Source of the DNA: a virus
Taxonomy: Duplodnaviria > Heunggongvirae > Uroviricota > Caudoviricetes
Length of the DNA stretch: 41,073 nt
Virus record (IMG/VR): IMGVR_UViG_2537561979_000009
Coordinates: 1-41,073 of that record
Strand: one strand, 5' to 3'
Below are positions 25,201 through 41,073 of this stretch, in pieces. Made by a program: the position numbers and the translations under genes. Under the pieces are notes generated by a model. It saw only the letters and a list, made by a program, of their open reading frames with translations. It ran no database searches and was not told where the DNA came from. Positions within the stretch are counted from its first letter, which is position 1. Every line of letters begins with the position of its first letter.

Positions 25201-26307
25201 ATGAAAAATTTAACAGTGGCACTTTCTGCTGTAGCAGCATCAGTATTTCTGGCAACGTCTTCAAATGCAGCAGAAATATACAATAAAGATGCAAACAAAG
25301 TGGATTTATACGGTAAAGCAGTTGGTTTACATTATTTTTCTTCTGATAAGGACCAAAACGGAGATCAGACTTACGCACGCCTTGGATTCAGAGGTGAAAC
25401 CCAAATAAATAATTATATTACTGGTTTTGGTCAGTGGGAATATAATTTCCAGGGGAACAACCCTGAAGGGGATGGAGCTCAAACTGGAAACAAGACTCGC
25501 CTGGCATACGCTGGTCTGAAGCTTGCAGATGCTGGCTCTCTTGATTATGGTCGTAACTACGGCGTGGTGTACGACGCATTAAGCTACACTGACGTCTTCC
25601 CGGAGTTTGGACCTACCGCAGCGCAAGACGATAACTTCTTCGTTGGTCGTGTAGGCGGTGTTGCCACATACCGCAACACTGACTTTTTTGGACTGGTCGA
25701 TGGGCTTAGCTTTGCAATTCAGTATCTGGGAAAAAATGAACGCAAGGATAAACCAGATACTTCAAACGGAGAGGGTGTAGGTGGCTCTGTCAGCTATGAA
25801 TATGAAGGATTTGGTTTTGTCGCAGCATACGGCGCTGCTGATCGTACTAAAAATCAGAAAAAGGCTGAGCTTGGTAAAGGGAAAAAAGCTGAACAGTGGG
25901 CCACCGGGGTAAAATATGACGCAAATAATCTGTACCTGGCTGCCAGTTATGGTGAAACAAATAATACCCGTGCAATATCGTATGGTGATAATATTTCAGG
26001 AGTGGCGAATAAAACCGAAGATTTCACTGTTGTGGCACAATACCAGTTCGACTTTGGATTACGCCCGTCTCTTGCTTATACCCACTCTAAAGCAAAAAAC
26101 CTTTCATCCAGTACTGATATTAGTAAAAAACATGATGACGGATATATTGAAAAATTCGTTGAAGTCGGGGCTTCTTATTACTTCAACAAAAATATGTCTA
26201 CATACATAGATTACAAAATCAATATGCTCGATAAAAATAAATTCACTGAAAGAACAGGAGTATCAACCGACGATATTGTCGCTGTTGGTCTGGTTTATCA
26301 GTTCTGA
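25201..26307 (+). CDS. Outer membrane porin, OmpC/OmpF/PhoE family (prophage Lc/NmpC-like lysogenic conversion porin)
   Basis: 368 aa, signal peptide, ends in the beta-barrel motif ...VGLVYQF; AT-rich upstream region. Confidence 0.85.
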
Positions 26308-26485: not shown

Positions 26486-26923
26486 TTATATCCCTGCCCT
26501 GGAGGACGCAGTTTTACGACGTATCGAATAATTTGTGCTCACATATCGATCCATCTCAAGGCGAACATCCAGCATCATCAACATGCCATCGATAACTCCT
26601 TCCGCTTTCTGCAGGCGCTTACCAACGCAAGTATCCGAACATCCATGTTTCCTTGCTAACTTCATGAACGTAATCCCATATACGTAGTAATCAACCAGCA
26701 TGTCATGCATATCGGCGTTGTTCTTTTTCAGGCGAGCCATACAACCACATATAATCATCGCGTCATCATCGGAACACTGCGATCGCGATTTTACTTTTGA
26801 CGGTATCAGCCCCTTAAATCCGGCGGCAATGCCTGACCATTCCACGTCTTCATGATTATTTGCGACCCATGCCCCCCAACGTTCAAGAACCATTTGAATA
26901 TCACGCATCAACTTTCTCCACAA
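26486..26923 (-). CDS. Q: Late gene antiterminator Q (QuuD/phage 21-type family)
   Basis: Cys-rich ~140-aa protein ([14 protein letters not shown]... [11 protein letters not shown]) between the nin-like region and lysis genes; alternative starts at Met6 and Met11. Confidence 0.65.
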
Positions 26924-28900: not shown

Positions 28901-29296
28901 TTACCGAGTTGCTAATTTGCAACTCGCTTTTTCGTACTTACTGATAGTGATCTCGACCTTCCCCTCCGGGATAACCGGTCCCCACTCCACCAGCATTCTT
29001 TTCACCTGACTGTCGTCTTCCCACACCCCCGCGTGGGTCAGGGCGTCAAACAGCGCCTTGTTATAGTTGTCCAGATCGCGGATCCGGTTATCCGGAGGAA
29101 ACAACACGATCTCCACTGAAGCAGGTGCCGACGTTGGTTTCGGCAGACGACGTAACTGCTCAACTATTGCTGCGCACGCCGCGCTCTGAAATTTTCGCCC
29201 CGCCGCGCTTATCAGGCTCTTACCAGCAAATGCCCCTTTGTTGGGGTGTCGCCAGTACGTGTTCACGCTGGGCGGGAAAGGCAGGATCAGCTTCAT
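28901..29296 (-). CDS. rusA: Holliday junction resolvase RusA
   Basis: 131 aa, ...PPSVNTYWRH...DLDNYNKALFDALTHAGVWEDDSQV..., RusA family pattern. Confidence 0.8.
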   Translation of the reverse strand: MKLILPFPPSVNTYWRHPNKGAFAGKSLISAAGRKFQSAACAAIVEQLRRLPKPTSAPASVEIVLFPPDNRIRDLDNYNKALFDALTHAGVWEDDSQVKRMLVEWGPVIPEGKVEITISKYEKASCKLATR

Positions 29297-29619
29297 ACTT
29301 TCAGGCCTCTCTCATGTAACCAGTGGGTTGCACGCAGCCTGGCGTTTTCCTCACCGGCAAGCAGTGAGCGGATAATCCCGACCGCCTCGCTGTCGTCGTC
29401 CTTCACCGCGGTATGAAGAGTGATACCCCGGGCCACGCCACGCTTTATCGTGATGACGCCTTTTTTCTCCAGTGCGCGAAGATGTTCCACCGCTGCATTC
29501 ACTGAACGGTATCCCAGTATGGTTGCCACCTCCTGATTGGTTGGCGGGAAGCCACGTTCTTTCTGGTAAGAAATCAGCATATCCAGCACCTGCTGCTGGC
29601 ATTGAGTTAACGTCGTCAT
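29293..29619 (-). CDS. LexA N-terminal DNA-binding-domain-like protein with no peptidase domain, 108 aa
   Basis: LTQCQQQVLDMLISYQKERGFPPTNQEVATILGYRSVNAAVEHLRALEKKGVI closely parallels the LexA winged helix; no S24 domain follows. Confidence 0.6.
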   Translation of the reverse strand: MTTLTQCQQQVLDMLISYQKERGFPPTNQEVATILGYRSVNAAVEHLRALEKKGVITIKRGVARGITLHTAVKDDDSEAVGIIRSLLAGEENARLRATHWLHERGLKV

Positions 29620-30269
29620 GCCGCCATCTCCCTGACCAGTTTTTCCGCCTGCTGGCGAACCTGCGCCAGAAACGCCTCACCACATGCCTCAAGTTCATCA
29701 CGCCCGATGTAGCTGATTGCCGGTCCCTTCCAGGTCTTGTCGAAAACAGCAATAGCACCAGCGAAGAAAGCGCCTGTCGGCACCTGCTTCTCGTCCTTCG
29801 GTATAAACCAGGCAGGCAGTTCAAAACCAATACGCCCGCGAATAAAAGCAATATGATCTGCATCTTCCGGCCACCACACTTCGCTGGTGGCCGCTTTGAT
29901 CAGGAAAACATAGCGCCCGCCCTTATCACGCATGGCACTGGCATGTTTCATGATGTAACGCATGCCGGTGATGTATTGCCCCTCATGCTGACTGGCGCGG
30001 CTGTATGGAGGATTACCAAAGGCAGCACCTTTAAGCTCCGCAAGGCGTTCTGACCAGTCACGCGCCAGCGCGTTGTCTTCTGCCGTGTAATACGCGGCAC
30101 ATTTGGCGTTATCACCGTCAGTGAACAGATCCAGAACAAACGGGCCAAACAGGGTGTTAATTCCCCAGAAAATGTTGTCCGGCGTGCGCCACTGATCACC
30201 CACTTCCTTCAGTTCATGGGCTGGTTTGTTCCGCAGTTCCACCAGCTCCTGGCAATATTTATTACTCAT
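29616..30269 (-). CDS. Phage DNA N6-adenine methyltransferase (Dam-like)
   Basis: GNPPYS catalytic motif; start taken at MSNKYCQ (30269), abutting the upstream gene stop, rather than the ORF start at 30302. Confidence 0.7.
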   Translation of the reverse strand: MSNKYCQELVELRNKPAHELKEVGDQWRTPDNIFWGINTLFGPFVLDLFTDGDNAKCAAYYTAEDNALARDWSERLAELKGAAFGNPPYSRASQHEGQYITGMRYIMKHASAMRDKGGRYVFLIKAATSEVWWPEDADHIAFIRGRIGFELPAWFIPKDEKQVPTGAFFAGAIAVFDKTWKGPAISYIGRDELEACGEAFLAQVRQQAEKLVREMAA

Positions 30270-30763
30270 TAAGCCCCCACGTAATTCCTTGACAGATACC
30301 ACTCATCACCCGATACAGCTCGCTTGCTGCTTTTCCGTAAGCACTGCTCACGACGCGCCAGAAAATTGTTTCGTTCTGGCTGGGAGTGGCTTTCTCGGAA
30401 TGCCGCCATCCACACCGTTGCAGCACGACGGTATAAACCCCTGGACTCCAGCTCTTCAGCCTGGCGGGTCAGGCACAAAATCACCCGGGGATCGTTAGTG
30501 CCGACATAGAAATTGCGCACAGGTTTGGTTTCACGAACTGGTTGTGGTTCCGGCTCCTGCGCTCTCTCAGTCAGGCGTGGGAAATGTCTGCGTGTATCTC
30601 CTTCACAACGGTGAGCCACACGCCCACTCTGACGTAACTTGCTTGCTGACTGCAGAACGCGCTGCCGTGAGTAACCTGCAAAAGCATCCGCAATGTCTCC
30701 GGAAGTACACCCCGGATGGGCTTCAATGAATTTCTGAACTTCATTCAAAAGACTCATGATCAC
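30269..30763 (-). CDS. Putative PerC-family transcriptional regulator, 164 aa
   Basis: Motif ...LESRGLYRRAATVWMAAF... is reminiscent of PerC/Pch proteins; start overlaps the O-like gene stop. Tentative. Confidence 0.35.
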   Translation of the reverse strand: MIMSLLNEVQKFIEAHPGCTSGDIADAFAGYSRQRVLQSASKLRQSGRVAHRCEGDTRRHFPRLTERAQEPEPQPVRETKPVRNFYVGTNDPRVILCLTRQAEELESRGLYRRAATVWMAAFRESHSQPERNNFLARREQCLRKSSKRAVSGDEWYLSRNYVGA

Positions 30764-31578
30764 CCCCTGAATCCTGCCGGGATCTGGCTGTAGTCCACGT
30801 TGTCGTAACTGGCTTTGAAGTACGGGTCCTCACGTCTGGCTGCAGATACCGCAGGAACTTCCCAGGGTTCTTCGAAATGACGATCCGGACCAAAGAACGT
30901 GACAGCCTGTTTCACAAATTGTGTGCCGCTGTTACCCATCGCAGATACCCAGCCCGCGTAGCGTTTCACACCTTCCAGCATGGTTTCGGGGTTTACCCCC
31001 TCATTCAAACGGGCTTTCCAGGCTTTGAAGGCTGCAGATTTTGAATTGCCACCAGCACGTTTGGGATATGCCAGCCATGCCTGCTCAAACTCCGGAGAGT
31101 ATTCCGGTCGGTTTGAACGAACTCGCACAGACTCATCAGCAGATGCACCAACAGCTATTGGTTCATTGACTGGTTCTTTGACTGGTTCAAAAGAGTGACT
31201 GGTTCTGGGTGAATCTCCTGCACTACCCCCTGGTGCAACTCCTGCACTACATGGTGAATTTGCTGCACCAGATAGTGAATTATTTGCACTACCCCCTAGT
31301 GAATCTCCTGCACCATCCAGATGAAGGAGATAGATATTACTTGAGTTACCTTTTTCACCTTTCCGGGTGACTTTTTTTACCAGCCCGGACTCACAAAGGG
31401 CCGCAATATGATTCATCACAGAACGTTTGCTAATCTCGCACTGGTCAGCAATATGCTGGTAGCTGGGCCAGCACTCACCCTGATCGCTGGCATTATCAGC
31501 CAGCTTGATCAGAACCAGTTTTCGCAATGGATTACCCACTCGAATTTTCATCGCTTTAACCATCAGCTCCATACTCAT
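30760..31578 (-). CDS. Replication initiation protein (lambda O analogue) with internal iterons
   Basis: N-terminal winged-helix region (LRKLVLIKLADNASDQGECWPSYQHIADQCEISKRSVMNHIAALCESGLV), Gly/Ser/Ala linker encoded by iteron DNA; early-right operon position. Confidence 0.6.
   Translation of the reverse strand: MSMELMVKAMKIRVGNPLRKLVLIKLADNASDQGECWPSYQHIADQCEISKRSVMNHIAALCESGLVKKVTRKGEKGNSSNIYLLHLDGAGDSLGGSANNSLSGAANSPCSAGVAPGGSAGDSPRTSHSFEPVKEPVNEPIAVGASADESVRVRSNRPEYSPEFEQAWLAYPKRAGGNSKSAAFKAWKARLNEGVNPETMLEGVKRYAGWVSAMGNSGTQFVKQAVTFFGPDRHFEEPWEVPAVSAARREDPYFKASYDNVDYSQIPAGFRG
31209..31313. repeat. Five phased iterons GTGAATnnnnTGCAC (one variant), candidate replication origin
   Basis: Copies begin near 31209, 31233, 31254, 31275 and 31299 (spacing 24/21/21/24 bp); additional TGACTGGTTC x3 at about 31166-31205. 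Confidence 0.65.
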
Positions 31579-31799: not shown

Positions 31800-32959
31800 T
31801 TGCGCCCCCTTACCTCTGAAGGGTTCAGCGACAAATTTATGAGGCAGGCCAGTGCCGAAGCATCATTAATATAGTCATATAAGCTAACAGCCAGCGGAGA
31901 TTCGGCTTTTGCCAACATAGGATAAAGCTGCTGCAGCCAGACCTGATGAATTGATGAAATGTAGGAACAGAGAACGCTGGCGTTATGTGCAACGTCGCTC
32001 GGTACAGCGGGCTTTGAAAGCTGTTTCTCCATCTGGTTAAAGGCATTGATGTATGCCTCTTTGAACTGGGCAGCACGTTTCCCCGTGAAACCCATAGCAA
32101 GAAACGCAAAGCCGTCGCGGGTTATTTGATAGCAAGGAAGTTTGCGAGTACCGCCGTTGGGCTGGCGTACCAAAATTGATGTCTCCGCAAAATTGCGGGC
32201 ACAAAACTCTGGAGAACAATCCAAAATGCGGATCTTTTTCAGAACATCGTCATGACGTTTAGAGAAGAAGTCAGCAACAGCCAAAGAAGATGTAACAGCC
32301 TGACCATCAACGATGGCAATTTCAGGTTGAGAGAGGGTTGGGAGAGTAGTCATGGTGACAGCCCCGGTAGTCAGTTTTTTAGAAAACTCACCACATGGGA
32401 CGCCAATCACAGAGGTGGTGAGACGTACAGGGTTGGCGTTACCGGAGACTACCGAACCCGGCCCGACCGAAGTCGGCCCTGTACGCCCCACCATAATTTG
32501 GGCGTAGCAATGCTCATGACACGAAAAAACCGCATGAGCGCGGTTATGCTCAGTAATCAATTTCAGGACGCCAATCCCGGCACCCGTTTTATAAGGTGCC
32601 TGAACAGTGTAACGTCCCGGAATGGCAGAATCAATGTGCTGGTGGTCCTTCACACTCAACAAAATCACGCCTGAATTTCCACAAAGGACTAAAGCACTCA
32701 TGCGGGTAGTCTTTGCGAAAATAGATAACGCGCTGTGTTTCTGGTTCCCAACGAATAACATGAACATAAAGTCCTCTTCCGTCACGAAACCAGCGGTTAA
32801 GTTCCTGCACAACTCGCCCCCCACAGTCAGGTAAAGTTCTCTGTGGTTACTTACAGCCAGGTGATTTGGTAATCTGCATTCATGCCGTAACAACAGGTGT
32901 TCAGCCACGCGGACCACCAGCTGTTGCGACCAACGGTTATTTGCCGTTAAACTGTTCAT
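31796..32959 (-). CDS. Rha family phage regulatory protein; Rha domain in the C-terminal 185 aa, N-terminal 202 codons of uncertain reality
   Basis: MTTLPTLSQPEIAIVDGQAVTSSLAVADFFSKRHDDVLKKIRILDCSPEFCARNF...MGFTG matches the Phage_pRha pattern and begins at an internal Met near 32353; the ORF stays open to 32959. Confidence 0.6.
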   Translation of the reverse strand: MNSLTANNRWSQQLVVRVAEHLLLRHECRLPNHLAVSNHRELYLTVGGELCRNLTAGFVTEEDFMFMLFVGNQKHSALSIFAKTTRMSALVLCGNSGVILLSVKDHQHIDSAIPGRYTVQAPYKTGAGIGVLKLITEHNRAHAVFSCHEHCYAQIMVGRTGPTSVGPGSVVSGNANPVRLTTSVIGVPCGEFSKKLTTGAVTMTTLPTLSQPEIAIVDGQAVTSSLAVADFFSKRHDDVLKKIRILDCSPEFCARNFAETSILVRQPNGGTRKLPCYQITRDGFAFLAMGFTGKRAAQFKEAYINAFNQMEKQLSKPAVPSDVAHNASVLCSYISSIHQVWLQQLYPMLAKAESPLAVSLYDYINDASALACLINLSLNPSEVRGRK

Positions 32960-33507
32960 GCGTTAGTTTCTCCACAGACACAAAACGCCACGACGCCCGG
33001 AGCTGCACACTCGCGGGCGTCACTCTTTTCTGGAACGCAGAAAATTTTGTAGACCAGTGCCGCATGTTCCTGGAGCTTCGAAATCGACAGATACAACTCA
33101 TCATTAATTGCTGTCTGCTCATGTGGCTCCACTACCCCGTCTTCGATTGCCGAACGAATCTGCTTTGAGTAACTCCCGATCTGTTCAATAACTTCCAGTA
33201 GACGTTGGTTGATATCAGCGTTCTCTACTTCCTCAATTTCTGGAAGTGATACAAACACCCCACCAGCAGACTGTGCGACAGCATCCGCAATGTAGTGAGT
33301 GCCAGCAGCACGCTGTAAAATCATTGCCCATCCCAGCGGGAAAATCTGATCGCCATCTGCACGAAGGCGGTTGAATAAAGCGTTCTCTGTTACATCCAGC
33401 CACTCAGCAGCTTCAGCGTAGCCCCCCGGCAACGCCGCGATAGTTTTTCTGACAGCTTTCACGTACCACTCAGGCTGTTTTTCCACTTTCCAGTGATGAT
33501 TACCCAC
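32956..33507 (-). CDS. Putative CII-like regulatory protein, 183 aa, GTG start
   Basis: Second gene of the rightward operon after cro; start overlaps cro stop; family guessed by position. Confidence 0.35.
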   Translation of the reverse strand: MGNHHWKVEKQPEWYVKAVRKTIAALPGGYAEAAEWLDVTENALFNRLRADGDQIFPLGWAMILQRAAGTHYIADAVAQSAGGVFVSLPEIEEVENADINQRLLEVIEQIGSYSKQIRSAIEDGVVEPHEQTAINDELYLSISKLQEHAALVYKIFCVPEKSDARECAAPGVVAFCVCGETNA

Positions 33508-33760
33508 AGCTTACCTCCTGTTCCTGTGGTTTAAACCCATTCTGATTTTGGCTAGATTGAAAACGTGCCGGATAAAGAATCTGCATTTCGCTGATTTCAC
33601 CCTTAAAAAAATTGGCCAGACGTTCTGCAAGATCGATAGATGGAATTTGTTCCAATCTTTCAATACGACTCAGCGTCGCTGGATTGACCTGAACGCCAGC
33701 AGCAACATGCTGCAAAGTAAATCCGTGCGCCTTACGCACATTCCGTAATGGTGATTGCAT
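33500..33760 (-). CDS. cro: Cro-like repressor (XRE-type HTH)
   Basis: 86 aa, first gene divergent from cI, HTH ...QHVAAGVQVNPATLSRIERL...; coordinates from the ORF track. Confidence 0.75.
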   Translation of the reverse strand: MQSPLRNVRKAHGFTLQHVAAGVQVNPATLSRIERLEQIPSIDLAERLANFFKGEISEMQILYPARFQSSQNQNGFKPQEQEVSCG

Positions 33761-33857: not shown

Positions 33858-34550
33858 ATGAACATAGGAAACCGAGTCAGACAACTTCGCCAGGCGAAGA
33901 ACATGAAAATCGCCGATCTCGCTGAAGCAATAGGAGTGGATGCGGCGAATATCTCACGCCTGGAAACAGGTAAGCAGAAACAATTCACTGAACAAGCCCT
34001 GAGTAATATTGCCAGGAGCTTAGGTGTTGATATTGCTGATCTCTTTACCTCAGACTTCAAAAGTAATACTGTATGTAAAAACAGTATTAGTGAGGATGTT
34101 GCGCAGGTGAAGGATGTATTCCGTATTGAAATGCTGGATGTCAGTGCCAGTGCGGGAAATGGCCTTATCCAGGGCGGTGATGTCATTGATGTGATTCATG
34201 CCATTGAATACAGAACTGATAATGCTGTATCGATGTTTGGCGGACGGCCAGCCAATCACATTAAAGTTATCAACGTTCGTGGGGACAGTATGTGTCCAAC
34301 CATTGAACCAGGAGATCTCATCTTCGTTGATGTCAGTATCAATCAGTTTGATGGAGATGGTATCTATGTATTTGGTTTTGATGATAAAATTTATGTCAAA
34401 CGACTGCAAATGATACCTGACAAACTACTGGTGATTTCTGATAACCAGATTTACCGTGAATGGGGAATTACCAGCGAAAATGAACACCGGTTTATGGTCT
34501 TTGGAAAGGTCTTAATCAGCCAGTCACAAACCCTTAAGCGACACAATTAA
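33858..34550 (+). CDS. cI: CI repressor: N-terminal HTH plus C-terminal S24 (LexA-like) autoproteolytic domain
   Basis: 230 aa; HTH (MKIADLAEAIGVDAANISRLETGKQ), C-terminal GDSM serine and KR lysine motifs. Confidence 0.85.
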   Translation: MNIGNRVRQLRQAKNMKIADLAEAIGVDAANISRLETGKQKQFTEQALSNIARSLGVDIADLFTSDFKSNTVCKNSISEDVAQVKDVFRIEMLDVSASAGNGLIQGGDVIDVIHAIEYRTDNAVSMFGGRPANHIKVINVRGDSMCPTIEPGDLIFVDVSINQFDGDGIYVFGFDDKIYVKRLQMIPDKLLVISDNQIYREWGITSENEHRFMVFGKVLISQSQTLKRHN

Positions 34551-38716: not shown

Positions 38717-39679
38717 TTAACGTATATTTTTTAATTTTTTATTTTCCACCAGGTCCATAAACATTTTATTTAAATCTGACCTTTTACTTTCCTTGTCATC
38801 ATCTTGAAGCTTAGGATCAAAGTAACGTATTAAGCAGTTTTCAATAATTCTCCCCTCATTATCAACATCAATTTCATCCAGTAGAGAATTTGAAATATTA
38901 AAGACCACATTACATTTATTATTCAGCGATATAATCCTTGGATTAAATATACTAAAACAAACAAAAAAATCATTATCGTCATTTGAAACGCTATACAGCA
39001 TCTTTGATAAGCCACGGTGAATAAAATCAACAGGGCGCCGATGCGGATGACGTGTATATCCTACGTAATGCACTTCTGTATGAATTCCTAAATCAATATA
39101 ATGTCCGTTTACGAAGTCATGAACTGACATCACACATAAATTGCCATTTTCATATTCAATGTAGAGAAACTTCTCAGTTACTCTAACATTTGGAGTTACC
39201 TTCACTACCCCATTCTGCGTAAACGTGCAAAAGGAATATTTTATCCGAAGCTTTCGCTCTTCTTTGCCAATCAACAGAGTGAATACTATATTTTTTGTGA
39301 ATGGGTTATACCTAGGCTGTTTCTTGGTTGAAAACCTTACTTTTTTTCTTGAACCTAAGAAATAAATAAATCTCTTTTCACAGCTTTCCCTCGTATATTT
39401 TTCCATAATTCTGAGATAGTTCTTTATTATCTTATTTGTTCTTATATCATCAGGAGGATTAATTATCATATCATACCAAATACAATCGGTGTTAATGAGA
39501 TCAATCCACAATGACTTATCGGCTTCTGAGAAAACCACGTTAGAGTTTATAAAATCAAAGTTTCCGCGAGTCATAAAACACTTCATCACATTAAAAATCA
39601 CCTGCACATAATAAATTAAGTAGCAGAAGGTTCGCAAACCCTTGCTTCTGTTTGTGCTATGATATTTTTCATAATTCAT
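38717..39679 (-). CDS. Hypothetical protein, 320 aa, AT-rich moron between xis and int
   Basis: Markedly lower GC than the flanking phage DNA, rich in Asn/Lys/Ile/Phe; no recognisable motif. Confidence 0.6.
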   Translation of the reverse strand: MNYEKYHSTNRSKGLRTFCYLIYYVQVIFNVMKCFMTRGNFDFINSNVVFSEADKSLWIDLINTDCIWYDMIINPPDDIRTNKIIKNYLRIMEKYTRESCEKRFIYFLGSRKKVRFSTKKQPRYNPFTKNIVFTLLIGKEERKLRIKYSFCTFTQNGVVKVTPNVRVTEKFLYIEYENGNLCVMSVHDFVNGHYIDLGIHTEVHYVGYTRHPHRRPVDFIHRGLSKMLYSVSNDDNDFFVCFSIFNPRIISLNNKCNVVFNISNSLLDEIDVDNEGRIIENCLIRYFDPKLQDDDKESKRSDLNKMFMDLVENKKLKNIR

Positions 39680-39837: not shown

Positions 39838-41073
39838 CTACGCAAACTGTCCGTTGGAGATTAAGTCAGTACAAGTAACGATCGATTCAACCCTCTCCCA
39901 CCATGCCCAGTAAGCTTTACGCTGTTCTTCTAGATAATCGCTCTTATCATAAACTTGCCATACACCTGGCAGTTTATGACCGAGCATTATTTCAGCAATA
40001 TGAGGAGCAGTAAGATCAGAAAAGTTTGTTCGTGCTGTTCGTCTCAAATCATGAAGAGACCAATGAGGAAATTGATACCCCAAACGTCGCCATGCGAACT
40101 GCATTAAATTGTAAGGCAGCGACTGCAATGATGTCCGACCAACTGGCTCCCTGCTTCCTTCCTTAGTAAAAAGCATATCGGAACCGTTGTTCATAGAGAT
40201 AACGTATTTTATAAGCTCTTCAACCGGTTCAATAATGGGCCGCTTTAGCGGTTCGCCTGTTATGTCCCCAGTCTTATGTCGTTCTGGTGGTACAGTCCAT
40301 ACCTTATTTATGAAATCAAAATCATCCACCCTAGCAGTAATTAGCTCTGAACTACGGCAACCAAAATGCAGCAATAGTTTAATGAAGGCTCGGTATTTAG
40401 GAACCATTCGAGAACCATCGATCGCAGCATAAAGGATGTTAATTTCATCATGTGTCAGAAACCGTTTTTTCTGACCTTTACGGATATCCATATCTTTACC
40501 CGTGATATCCGACAGTGGGCGAGTTTCAATGAGCTTTCTCTTATACGCCCAGACATGGGCCTGCTTTGCGTTAATTAGCAATCGGTCTACTATTGCTGGA
40601 GTCTTGGTGCTAAGAGGCTCCAGGACTTCTAACCAATCATGCAATGTAGCTGCATCGTGAGGGATATTCCCGATTTTAGAGAACAGGTGCAGCTCAAACG
40701 AGCGGAGTATCTGTTCAGAACCTTTTTTATTTTTTACACAATATGCTTCATACCAGGCACGGATCACAGACTCTACCGTCATGGCTTCAGTAGCTTTTCG
40801 TTTTTCAGCCTGCTTGACTAATCGTGGATTGCGGTTTGACTCGAGTTCACCACGGAGACGGATAACTTCTTCTCTGGCCTCTTTTAATCCAGTTGCCGGG
40901 TAAGTTCCGATATCAAGGCGCTCACCTTTCCCTGCCCATTGATAACGATATTGGAACACTACGCGACCTTTCGGTGATACTCTGACAGACAGACCATCAC
41001 GATCGGATTTAACCAAAACCTTATCACGTTCCTTTCCAACGACTGAACGCAACCACGCATCAGACAGCGCCAT
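39838..41073 (-). CDS. int: Tyrosine integrase, P4-type with DUF4102-like N-terminus
   Basis: 411 aa; N-terminal ...LSVRVSPKGRVVFQYRYQWAGK arm-binding-like region and C-terminal R...HDLRRT...LGH...Y catalytic motifs; ATG occupies the last three bases of the window. Confidence 0.85.
   Translation of the reverse strand: MALSDAWLRSVVGKERDKVLVKSDRDGLSVRVSPKGRVVFQYRYQWAGKGERLDIGTYPATGLKEAREEVIRLRGELESNRNPRLVKQAEKRKATEAMTVESVIRAWYEAYCVKNKKGSEQILRSFELHLFSKIGNIPHDAATLHDWLEVLEPLSTKTPAIVDRLLINAKQAHVWAYKRKLIETRPLSDITGKDMDIRKGQKKRFLTHDEINILYAAIDGSRMVPKYRAFIKLLLHFGCRSSELITARVDDFDFINKVWTVPPERHKTGDITGEPLKRPIIEPVEELIKYVISMNNGSDMLFTKEGSREPVGRTSLQSLPYNLMQFAWRRLGYQFPHWSLHDLRRTARTNFSDLTAPHIAEIMLGHKLPGVWQVYDKSDYLEEQRKAYWAWWERVESIVTCTDLISNGQFA

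What the first reader, a model, noticed from the sequence alone, without database searches (positions are those of the whole stretch)
29616..30763. Phage Dam-like methyltransferase and putative PerC-family regulator in the early operon
An orphan N6-adenine methyltransferase (GNPPY motif) with no adjacent restriction gene suggests an anti-restriction or epigenetic role. The neighbouring 164-aa ORF has a PerC-like motif; PerC/Pch-type regulators can act on host virulence loci, but this assignment is tentative.
Basis: partly seen in the sequence, partly recalled or inferred. Interest (0 to 1): 0.45.

Follow-up and report, generated by a model that had tools for sequence, protein, structure and literature searches.

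The report
Prophage Dam methylase and YfdN regulator
Both genes are real and correctly named, an orphan phage adenine methyltransferase and a PerC-family protein, but they are an ordinary, already annotated part of a lambda-like E. coli prophage found in thousands of genomes, including K-12.

Summary
On the minus strand, 29616..30269 encodes a 217-aa phage Dam-family N6-adenine methyltransferase (Pfam PF05869 E=7e-46; TIGR01712 255 bits against a cutoff of 97). Its NPPY motif and every family-invariant residue are intact, and there is no restriction partner.

30269..30757 encodes a 162-aa protein that is 95% identical to E. coli K-12 YfdN. Its residues 100-154 match Pfam PerC above threshold (39.3 against 22.6 bits).

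Both genes lie in the rightward early operon: cro, cII, Rep, yfdN, dam, lexA-N, rusA, Q. Stops and starts overlap along the chain.

The same 2.4-kb module occurs at about 98% identity in phages mEp460 and SfV, in Stx2c phages, and in hundreds of E. coli genomes, already annotated this way.

Three points are new here:
- "PerC" covers only a C-terminal three-helix bundle. The N-terminal 60 residues form a winged helix.
- In 18 of 19 diverged clusters this gene directly follows the replication gene.
- In 15 of 19 clusters it directly precedes an adenine methyltransferase drawn from one of three different Pfam families.

The methylation target, the function of YfdN and any virulence role remain untested. 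Verdict: already known, low interest.

The parts
29616..30269 (-). Orphan phage N6-adenine DNA methyltransferase of the T1/HP1 'Dam' family, 217 aa from the ATG at 30269. The maximal ORF reaches the GTG at 30302.
   Evidence: PF05869 E=7e-46. TIGR01712 254.8 bits against a cutoff of 97. PADLOC MTase_II. Its first 89 residues are 98% identical to the truncated K-12 YfdM.
30003..30014 (-). Codons for the catalytic motif IV, NPPY (residues 86-89).
   Evidence: Read directly from the sequence. Invariant in 20 family members, including the T1 and HP1 Dam enzymes.
30269..30757 (-). YfdN orthologue, 162 aa (164 aa if the GTG at 30763 is used): winged helix, disordered linker, then a PerC three-helix domain.
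   Evidence: 95% identical to K-12 YfdN. PF06069 39.3 bits. AF2 model with mean pLDDT 79.
30578..30757 (-). N-terminal winged-helix domain (residues 1-60).
   Evidence: The AF2 model shows three helices and a beta-hairpin, pLDDT 82-89. Foldseek matches ArsR/SmtB, MarR and BlaI winged helices at about 2 A rmsd over about 60 columns.
30329..30490 (-). PerC domain: a three-helix bundle (residues 90-143) carrying the signature LESRGLYRRAATVW.
   Evidence: pLDDT 92-96. Pfam PerC covers residues 100-154. Aligns to EPEC PerC residues 6-61. Invariant residues are A100, L103, R111, A112, A113, R136 and C139.
30267..30278 (-). yfdN/dam junction: the stop TAA overlaps the start ATG (TAATG), preceded by a G5 run (30274..30278) that serves as a Shine-Dalgarno-like site.
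   Evidence: Sequence read. Database ORFs of 380-382 aa that fuse the two genes read '...NYVGGLMSNKY...'.
30760..31578 (-). Replication initiator (O-like): HTH_36 winged helix plus a C-terminal domain that matches PHROG families annotated as primosomal protein or DnaD-like helicase loader. It lies immediately upstream of yfdN.
   Evidence: Pfam HTH_36 and PHROG 270. A homologous gene precedes the wHTH-PerC gene in 134 of 144 loci.
31209..31313 (.). About 4.6 direct repeats of 21-24 nt inside the Rep gene; probable origin iterons.
29293..29619 (-). 108-aa protein with a LexA DNA-binding domain only (no S24 peptidase domain). Its start overlaps the dam stop (ATGA).
   Evidence: PF01726 E=5.5e-19. 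Junction read.
28901..29296 (-). RusA Holliday-junction resolvase. Its start overlaps the preceding stop (ATGA).
   Evidence: PF05866. Junction read.

Best explanation
Shown:
- The two ORFs are intact genes of the rightward, repressor-controlled early operon of a lambda-like E. coli prophage.
- The gene order is cro, cII, Ash/Rha, a 74-aa ORF, Rep, yfdN, dam, lexA-N, rusA, kilA-N, DUF968, Q.
- The four junctions from Rep to rusA have overlapping or nearly overlapping stops and starts. No promoter-like or terminator-like site on the coding strand lies inside that stretch.
- The first gene encodes a catalytically intact orphan N6-adenine DNA methyltransferase of the phage T1/HP1 'Dam' family.
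- The second encodes the orthologue of K-12 YfdN, a two-domain protein: an N-terminal winged helix, a roughly 30-residue disordered linker, and a C-terminal three-helix bundle that is the PerC domain.

Inferred:
- Both genes are made only after induction or infection, together with the replication protein.
- The methyltransferase modifies replicating phage DNA, most likely at GATC. This would keep fast-replicating phage DNA fully methylated and protect it from enzymes that cut unmethylated GATC.
- It is therefore not likely to reprogramme the lysogen.
- YfdN most likely binds DNA through its winged helix. Its PerC domain would act as PerC/Pch and ANR proteins do, on H-NS-type nucleoprotein complexes or partner regulators, during the early lytic programme. 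Its target is unknown.
For: Identity:
- Methyltransferase.
- YfdN and PerC.
- Two-domain architecture: AF2 model with mean pLDDT 79 and winged-helix fold matches.

Operon:
- Gene content.
- Junctions TAATG, ATGA, ATGA.
- No minus-strand promoter-like or terminator-like site between 31600 and 28900.

The module is a standard phage unit:
- About 98% identical in mEp460, SfV and Stx2c phages.
- 736 E. coli genomes hold at least 80% of it.

GATC inference:
- T1 and HP1 Dam belong to the same family and share all invariant residues. Their GATC specificity comes from my own knowledge of the literature.
- In related phages the same slot holds a D12-class enzyme closely related to E. coli Dam (PDB 2g1p, E=1.4e-65).

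Slot conservation:
- Rep lies upstream in 18 of 19 full-length clusters.
- An adenine methyltransferase lies directly downstream in 15 of 19 clusters, drawn from PF05869, PF05063 or PF02086.

PerC-type mechanism:
- Pch reduces H-NS binding at the LEE1 promoter (PMC4764244).
Against: - No experiment bears on this enzyme subfamily. It is only 25-26% identical to T1 and HP1 Dam, so GATC specificity is an extrapolation.
- GATC frequency in the window is unremarkable: 144 observed against 158-190 expected.
- The structure prediction for the methyltransferase failed (pLDDT 38.7), so the fold and the AdoMet site were not checked in three dimensions.
- The promoter scan is a crude consensus search. 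Weak or non-sigma-70 promoters could allow expression in the lysogen.
- DNA binding by the YfdN winged helix, and any link to H-NS, rest on fold and family analogy alone.
- PerC-family members differ in effect: some activate LEE, some have no effect and one represses it.
- The synteny sample comes from related enterobacterial lambdoid phages and used a crude ORF caller, so the loci are not independent.
Confidence: 0.65

Rival explanations
1. The methyltransferase is expressed in the lysogen. It acts as an epigenetic regulator of host genes, or as a 'molecular vaccine' for the host chromosome.
For: - Prophage-borne orphan methyltransferases can change host phenotype; see the title and abstract of PMC12435837, listed.
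Against: - The gene sits in the middle of a translationally coupled chain under cI control, with no promoter-like site upstream.
- In K-12 the gene is truncated at NPPY.
- Among near-identical yfdN loci, 20 of 84 lack the methyltransferase, so it is readily lost.
- Other prophage methyltransferases in E. coli ST131, from different families, were not transcribed in the lysogen (PMC4659465).
Confidence: 0.1
2. The 162-aa protein is a PerC/Pch-type activator of host virulence genes (LEE1/ler).
For: - Pfam PerC match above threshold, with the signature shared with EPEC PerC.
- One study deleted K-12 yfdN as 'the K12 unique PerC homologue' before testing Pch proteins on a ler fusion (PMC5931665).
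Against: - The architecture differs: an extra N-terminal winged helix, 162 aa against 89 aa.
- PchD and PchE barely affect ler.
- PICI PerC-like proteins have no effect on LEE1, or repress it (PMC11773190).
- The gene occurs in K-12 and in 2732 of 5426 complete E. coli genomes.
- It is co-transcribed with lytic replication genes.
Confidence: 0.08
3. The protein works as an accessory of the replication and methylation module. It could regulate or target the neighbouring methyltransferase, or assist the Rep protein at the origin. It would not be a general transcription factor.
For: - It lies immediately downstream of Rep, with overlapping stop and start, in 18 of 19 diverged clusters.
- It lies immediately upstream of an adenine methyltransferase in 15 of 19 clusters, although the methyltransferase family changes: PF05869, PF05063 or PF02086.
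- Iteron-like repeats lie within the Rep gene.
Against: - The protein persists when the methyltransferase is absent (22 loci), and once away from Rep (cluster 5).
- T1 and HP1 carry the methyltransferase family without it.
- Its winged helix shows no sequence similarity to the Rep winged helix.
- Conserved gene order within one lineage of mosaic phages may be inheritance rather than function.
Confidence: 0.17
4. The PerC domain acts like an ANR (AraC negative regulator) protein. It would bind and inhibit an AraC-family activator or H-NS by protein-protein contact.
For: - A sub-threshold match to the ANR model NF033650 (22.5 bits, E=7.5e-5) over the same helices.
- The same weak match is seen in EPEC PerC and in every family member tested, and one small relative scores above the cutoff.
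- A PICI PerC-like protein represses LEE, and its authors suspected it might be an ANR-family protein.
Against: - The score is below the curated cutoff (32 bits).
- ANR proteins are small single-domain proteins (own knowledge), whereas this one carries a winged helix.
- No AraC-family gene was found among the window ORFs scanned against Pfam.
Confidence: 0.1

Closest known systems
E. coli K-12 cryptic prophage CPS-53 (KpLE1) genes yfdO-yfdN-yfdM
   Same: - Same gene order and orientation.
- YfdN is 95% identical over 164 aa.
- YfdM is 98% identical to the first 89 residues of the window methyltransferase.
   Different: - In K-12 the module is decayed: yfdO is a remnant of the replication gene and yfdM stops just after NPPY.
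- In the window all three genes are full length.
- YfdN is listed as uncharacterized in K-12.
Replication/nin modules of phages mEp460 and SfV (orf39, orf40, dam, orf42, orf43) and of Stx2c-converting phages
   Same: 97.7-98.2% nucleotide identity over the whole 2.4 kb, with the same five genes.
   Different: Nothing material. Some RefSeq records label the methyltransferase 'phosphoadenosine phosphosulfate reductase', which appears to be an annotation error.
Phage T1 Dam and Haemophilus phage HP1 Dam (archetypes of PF05869/TIGR01712)
   Same: Same family models and all 13 invariant positions, including WxTP, D47 and NPPY. All are orphan enzymes in phage early regions.
   Different: - Only 25-26% identity.
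- The window enzyme has an insertion of about 15 residues after NPPYS and a different C-terminus.
- Its specificity has not been determined.
EPEC PerC and EHEC PchA/B/C
   Same: The PerC domain is shared: 32% identity over 56 residues and the same signature.
   Different: - PerC is an 89-aa protein that aligns only with the C-terminal PerC domain; the group-1 pch genes are 315 bp.
- The window protein adds an N-terminal winged helix and a linker.
- It is encoded in a lytic early operon, not in a virulence plasmid operon or a prophage accessory-gene ('moron') position.
- No effect on LEE is known.
ANR family (Aar)
   Same: Weak sequence similarity over the helical region.
   Different: Below the family cutoff. 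The domain architecture differs.

Membership tests
Phage N6-adenine methyltransferase (Pfam PF05869 Dam / TIGR01712 phage_N6A_met) | Score above the curated cutoffs of the family models | tested here: met
   PF05869 156.4 bits against 28.1. TIGR01712 254.8 bits against 97.05, over the full model length.
Phage N6-adenine methyltransferase (Pfam PF05869 Dam / TIGR01712 phage_N6A_met) | Catalytic motif IV (D/N)PPY and the other family-invariant residues | tested here: met
   N86, P87, P88 and Y89, together with W27, T29, D47, L68, W72, L123, I143, R146 and F149, are invariant in 20 sequences that include T1 and HP1 Dam.
Phage N6-adenine methyltransferase (Pfam PF05869 Dam / TIGR01712 phage_N6A_met) | AdoMet-dependent methyltransferase fold | tested here: inconclusive
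   The AF2 model failed (pLDDT 38.7) with the shallow alignment that was allowed. No PDB relative was found by sequence or by profile.
Phage N6-adenine methyltransferase (Pfam PF05869 Dam / TIGR01712 phage_N6A_met) | N6 methylation of adenine in GATC | not testable with these tools
   This needs methylation-sensitive digestion or SMRT/nanopore sequencing of DNA from a dam-minus host expressing the gene.
Type II restriction-modification system | A cognate restriction endonuclease gene next to the methyltransferase | tested here: not met
   - The neighbours are the PerC-like gene, the LexA_DNA_bind-only gene, RusA and KilA-N.
- DUF968, with a sub-threshold HNHc_6 match, lies three genes away.
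- DUF968 is also present in a related locus that has no methyltransferase (L010), so it is not a cognate endonuclease.
PerC family (Pfam PF06069) | Score above the Pfam gathering threshold | tested here: met
   39.3 bits against 22.6, E=8.1e-10, residues 100-154.
PerC family (Pfam PF06069) | Signature shared with experimentally studied EPEC PerC | tested here: met
   BLASTP gives 32% identity, E=2e-7. Invariant residues are A, L, R-A-A, R and C.
PerC family (Pfam PF06069) | Small single-domain protein of about 90-105 aa | tested here: not met
   162 aa, with an N-terminal winged helix and a 30-residue linker. EPEC PerC is 89 aa.
PerC family (Pfam PF06069) | Activation of the LEE1/ler promoter | not testable with these tools
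   Published work shows that only group-1 Pch proteins activate ler, and that other homologues do nothing or repress it.
YfdN orthologue group (wHTH-PerC proteins of lambdoid phages) | Full-length near-identity to K-12 YfdN and the same flanking genes | tested here: met
   95% identity over 164 aa. yfdO-yfdN-yfdM synteny.
ANR (AraC negative regulator) family, NF033650 | Score above the curated cutoff | tested here: not met
   22.5 bits against a cutoff of 32.

The most novel reading that the evidence does not exclude
The wHTH-PerC (YfdN-type) proteins may not be virulence regulators at all. They may be dedicated partners of the lambdoid replication initiator and of an 'adenine-methyltransferase slot'.

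The gene keeps its place between Rep and a methyltransferase while the methyltransferase is swapped among three Pfam families. This would fit a protein that couples phage replication to Dam-type methylation. It would equally fit a protein that clears H-NS from the phage origin and early region.
Probability: 0.17. Interest if true: 0.5.

Novelty: already known. Interest (0 to 1): 0.22.

Why it matters
As it stands this is a routine annotation check. Both genes are standard cargo of a very common E. coli prophage module, and public pipelines already name them this way.

The modest added value is twofold. First, "PerC family" in prophage annotations hides a distinct two-domain protein whose function nobody has tested. 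Second, that protein's fixed position between the replication gene and an interchangeable adenine methyltransferase gives a concrete, cheap hypothesis to test in K-12-derived phages such as mEp460. It also warns against reading "PerC" in a prophage as evidence of virulence regulation.

Tried and rejected
- Structure of the methyltransferase. The permitted shallow alignment (at least 76% identity) gave an unusable model with pLDDT 38.7, so no fold search was run on it.
- PDB sequence and profile searches found no relative for either protein.
- M.EcoGII, M.EcoGIX and M.EcoMIV were considered as known E. coli mobile-element methyltransferases. M.EcoGII is a beta-class enzyme and M.EcoMIV is a PF02086 (D12-class) enzyme, so both belong to other families. 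M.EcoGIX is plasmid-borne, on pESBL.
- GATC counts in the window are not informative about specificity: 144 observed against 158-190 expected.
- The YfdN winged helix and the Rep winged helix show no detectable sequence similarity. The idea that YfdN binds the same sites as Rep therefore has no support.
- Foldseek against viral predicted structures gave only generic winged-helix matches. The AlphaFold database library was not available.
- Locus searches with alignments A2 and A6 failed because they lacked a conserved stretch. The genome-collection scan gave only 13 loci.
- I could not establish whether EHEC PchD or PchE has the two-domain YfdN architecture. Porter et al. 2005 is not held, and the papers I read give no protein lengths.
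- No paper in the library states the T1 Dam specificity. That point rests on my own knowledge.
Full report
**1. What is at the coordinates**

The interval 29616-30763 holds two minus-strand ORFs.

The lower one, 29616..30302 as the longest ORF, is a phage N6-adenine DNA methyltransferase:
- Pfam PF05869 'Dam', E=7e-46, 156 bits against a gathering score of 28.
- NCBIfam equivalog TIGR01712 'phage_N6A_met', 254.8 bits against a cutoff of 97, covering the whole model.
- PADLOC MTase_II, 517.9 bits over 217/217 positions.

FGNPPYS has NPPY at residues 86-89, encoded at 30003..30014.

The likely start is the ATG at 30269, giving 217 aa. This is the PGAP call in near-identical genomes. It overlaps the stop of the upstream gene as TAATG and follows a GGGGG run.

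The upper ORF, 30269..30763, matches Pfam PF06069 'PerC' at 39.3 bits (gathering 22.6, E=8.1e-10), but only across residues 100-154. Most relatives begin 'MSL/MSI...'. The ATG at 30757 (162 aa) is therefore a better start than the GTG at 30763 (164 aa).

**2. Context**

The window is a lambda-like prophage. It carries:
- an integrase at 39838..41073;
- a cI-like repressor (HTH plus S24 peptidase) at 33858..34550 on the plus strand;
- a divergent cro-like HTH gene at 33500..33760;
- a cII-like gene at 32956..33507;
- an Ash/Rha ORF, then a 74-aa ORF;
- a replication initiator at 30760..31578;
- the two genes of the finding;
- a 108-aa protein with only a LexA DNA-binding domain (29293..29619);
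- RusA (28901..29296), KilA-N, DUF968 and antiterminator Q (26486..26923);
- a porin gene on the other strand, followed by lysis and morphogenesis genes.

The junctions read as follows:
- Rep/yfdN: TGAtcATG, or GTGA if the GTG start is used.
- yfdN/dam: TAATG.
- dam/lexA-N: ATGA.
- lexA-N/rusA: ATGA.

A consensus scan found no promoter-like or terminator-like site on the coding strand between 31600 and 28900. 'Early operon' is therefore correct. The genes look co-transcribed from the rightward early promoter and translationally coupled.

No restriction endonuclease gene lies nearby, so the methyltransferase is an orphan. DUF968, three genes away, has a sub-threshold HNH-like match. It is also present in a related locus that lacks any methyltransferase (L010), so it is not a cognate nuclease.

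**3. How common and how well known**

The 2.4-kb stretch 29200-31600 matches DNA in 2732 of 5426 complete E. coli genomes. In 736 of them the match covers at least 80% of the stretch, and the best hits are 98.7% identical. They are annotated 'helix-turn-helix domain-containing protein | yfdN: PerC family transcriptional regulator | phage N-6-adenine-methyltransferase | LexA family | RusA'.

The stretch is 97.7-98.2% identical in phages mEp460 and SfV (where the gene is named dam) and in Stx2c-converting phages.

In E. coli K-12 the same arrangement survives in decayed form in cryptic prophage CPS-53 as yfdO-yfdN-yfdM. The window protein is 95% identical to YfdN over 164 residues. The first 89 residues of the methyltransferase are 98% identical to the truncated YfdM.

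One paper calls yfdN 'the K12 unique PerC homologue' and deleted it as a precaution before testing Pch proteins (PMC5931665). I found no functional study of it. The only mentions were in over-expression screens.

**4. The methyltransferase**

I aligned 20 family members. They included phage T1 Dam (L002:39024-39734) and Haemophilus phage HP1 Dam (L003:9166-9684), at 25-26% identity to the window protein. Thirteen positions are invariant: W27, T29, D47, L68, W72, N86, P87, P88, Y89, L123, I143, R146 and F149.

Compared with T1 and HP1 Dam, the window enzyme has an insertion of about 15 residues after NPPYS and its own C-terminus.

From my own knowledge of the literature, T1 and HP1 Dam methylate GATC. 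A review passage confirms that phage Dam-like genes are widespread and that their role 'is still not well understood' (PMC7556043).

No relative has a solved structure by sequence or profile, and my structure prediction failed. GATC is neither avoided nor enriched in the window.

M.EcoGII and M.EcoMIV belong to other methyltransferase families, and M.EcoGIX is plasmid-borne.

**5. The 'PerC' protein has two domains**

An alignment of 38 relatives down to 24% identity gave an AlphaFold model with mean pLDDT 79. It has three parts:
- Residues 1-60: three helices and a beta-hairpin, pLDDT 82-89.
- Residues 61-89: disordered.
- Residues 90-143: a three-helix bundle, pLDDT 92-96.

The N-terminal part superposes on the winged-helix DNA-binding domains of ArsR/SmtB, MarR and BlaI/MecI proteins, at about 2 A rmsd over about 60 columns with probability 1.0. 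The E-values are only 0.03-0.1, as expected for so small a domain.

The C-terminal bundle is the PerC domain. It aligns with residues 6-61 of genuine EPEC PerC (pMAR2, 89 aa) at 32% identity, E=2e-7. It shares the invariant pattern A..LE..G..RAA..W...R......R..C.

An exhaustive HMMER search of 1.84 billion representative proteins found only 97 relatives. These included many 140-165-aa two-domain proteins and a few 60-90-aa PerC-only proteins. One 214-aa relative carries two winged helices before the PerC domain. Named relatives all come from Enterobacterales.

The PerC domain also gives a sub-threshold match to the ANR (AraC negative regulator) model, 22.5 bits against a cutoff of 32. So do EPEC PerC and every relative tested, and one small relative scores above the cutoff. 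This overlap has been remarked on before. In that study a PICI-encoded PerC-like protein repressed LEE1 rather than activating it (PMC11773190).

[quoted passage not shown] PchD and PchE barely affect ler.

**6. Conserved neighbourhood**

I collected 147 loci encoding relatives. I called ORFs with a simple greedy script and classified the neighbouring genes with Pfam.

The PerC-like ORFs fall into 27 clusters at 90% identity. Nineteen of these are full-length wHTH-PerC proteins, 22-95% identical to the window protein.

- Upstream gene. In 18 of the 19 clusters (134 of 144 loci) it is the replication initiator (HTH_36, with or without Phg_2220_C), overlapping by 4 nt.
- Downstream gene. In 104 of 140 loci (15 of 19 clusters) it is an adenine methyltransferase, but the family varies:
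  - PF05869 Dam: 84 loci in all, 83 of them in six full-length clusters.
  - PF05063 MT-A70: 10 loci, three clusters.
  - PF02086 D12: 10 loci, eight clusters.
- Two clusters carry different methyltransferase families in different loci.
- In 22 loci the LexA_DNA_bind gene follows directly and no methyltransferase is present. This includes 20 of the 84 loci whose YfdN is nearly identical to the window's.
- The D12 enzyme in locus L008 is a close relative of E. coli Dam (PDB 2g1p, E=1.4e-65). This supports the idea that the slot is selected for Dam-type (GATC) methylation.
- The PF05869 enzymes in this slot are all at least 76% identical to the window's, although their PerC partners are only 22-30% identical to the window protein. 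The cassette therefore moves between modules.

Caveats: the loci come from one group of related mosaic phages, the sampling was driven by a PerC motif, and the ORF caller is crude. The pattern may reflect inherited gene order rather than a functional link.

**7. Most likely mechanism**

Shown: gene identity, intact motifs, two-domain architecture, operon position and the conserved neighbourhood.

Inferred:
- Both proteins are made after induction or infection, together with the replication protein.
- The methyltransferase modifies newly replicated phage DNA, probably at GATC. This would keep pace with rapid replication and protect against enzymes that cut unmethylated sites.
- YfdN binds DNA through its winged helix, and its PerC bundle acts on nucleoid-protein complexes or partner regulators.

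An epigenetic role in the uninduced lysogen is less likely, given the lack of an own promoter and the frequent loss or truncation of the gene. A role in host virulence regulation has no support here.

**8. Verdict**

The feature is already known and already annotated. It is of low interest except for the untested YfdN-type protein and its methyltransferase slot.

Noticed in passing
window 31209-31313 (also 31159-31189): About 4.6 direct repeats of 21-24 nt (consensus GTGAATCTCCTGCACTACCCC...) lie inside the replication gene, in the low-complexity linker between its winged helix and its C-terminal domain. They are probably origin iterons, as in lambda O.
   Followed up: partly
window 29293-29619 (-): A 108-aa protein with a LexA DNA-binding domain but no S24 peptidase domain, so it could not self-cleave. 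It follows the methyltransferase slot and precedes RusA in most related loci. Its function is unknown.
   Followed up: partly
window 30274-30278 and database proteins P0131, P0241: Public databases hold many 380-382-aa ORFs that fuse YfdN to the methyltransferase ('...NYVGGLMSNKY...'). The junction fits one extra G in the G5 run just before the TAATG overlap. These are probably homopolymer sequencing errors or mutations, but the run doubles as the ribosome-binding site of dam.
   Followed up: partly
RefSeq phage records NC_019716 (mEp460), NC_003444 (SfV) and NC_049941, at the gene matching window 29616-30269: These records call the methyltransferase 'phosphoadenosine phosphosulfate reductase'. 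The window protein matches only positions 283-492 of the 495-position PHROG 33262 that carries this name, so the label looks like an error propagated from a fusion family.
   Followed up: partly
loci L004-L010 and L104-L149 versus window 29616-30269: The gene slot after the wHTH-PerC gene holds an adenine methyltransferase from three different Pfam families (PF05869, PF05063, PF02086), or none. In L117 a C5-cytosine methylase follows as well. In L004 a type I M+S pair lies just upstream instead.
   Followed up: yes
proteins P0314, P0324 and EPEC PerC (L157:18487-18753): The PerC and ANR (AraC negative regulator) family models overlap. EPEC PerC scores 18 bits on the ANR model, and one small relative of the window protein scores above the ANR cutoff. 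The two families are probably homologous.
   Followed up: partly
window 25201-26307 (+): A full-length Gram-negative porin gene (Porin_1, E=3e-125) sits on the opposite strand between antiterminator Q and the lysis genes. It is a classic accessory-gene ('moron') position. The same arrangement is seen in locus L004.
   Followed up: no
window 38717-39679 (-): A 320-aa ORF next to the integrase has no Pfam or PADLOC match. It may be an accessory or defence gene.
   Followed up: no
proteins P0177, P0185; loci L115, L126: Some close homologues of the methyltransferase (76-82% identity) carry C-terminal extensions of 70-200 residues that the 217-aa window enzyme lacks.
   Followed up: no
proteins P0029, P0107, P0061: Database chimeras join the N-terminus of the Rep protein, or of the cro-like protein, to the body of YfdN. 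This is consistent with deletions in decaying prophages.
   Followed up: partly
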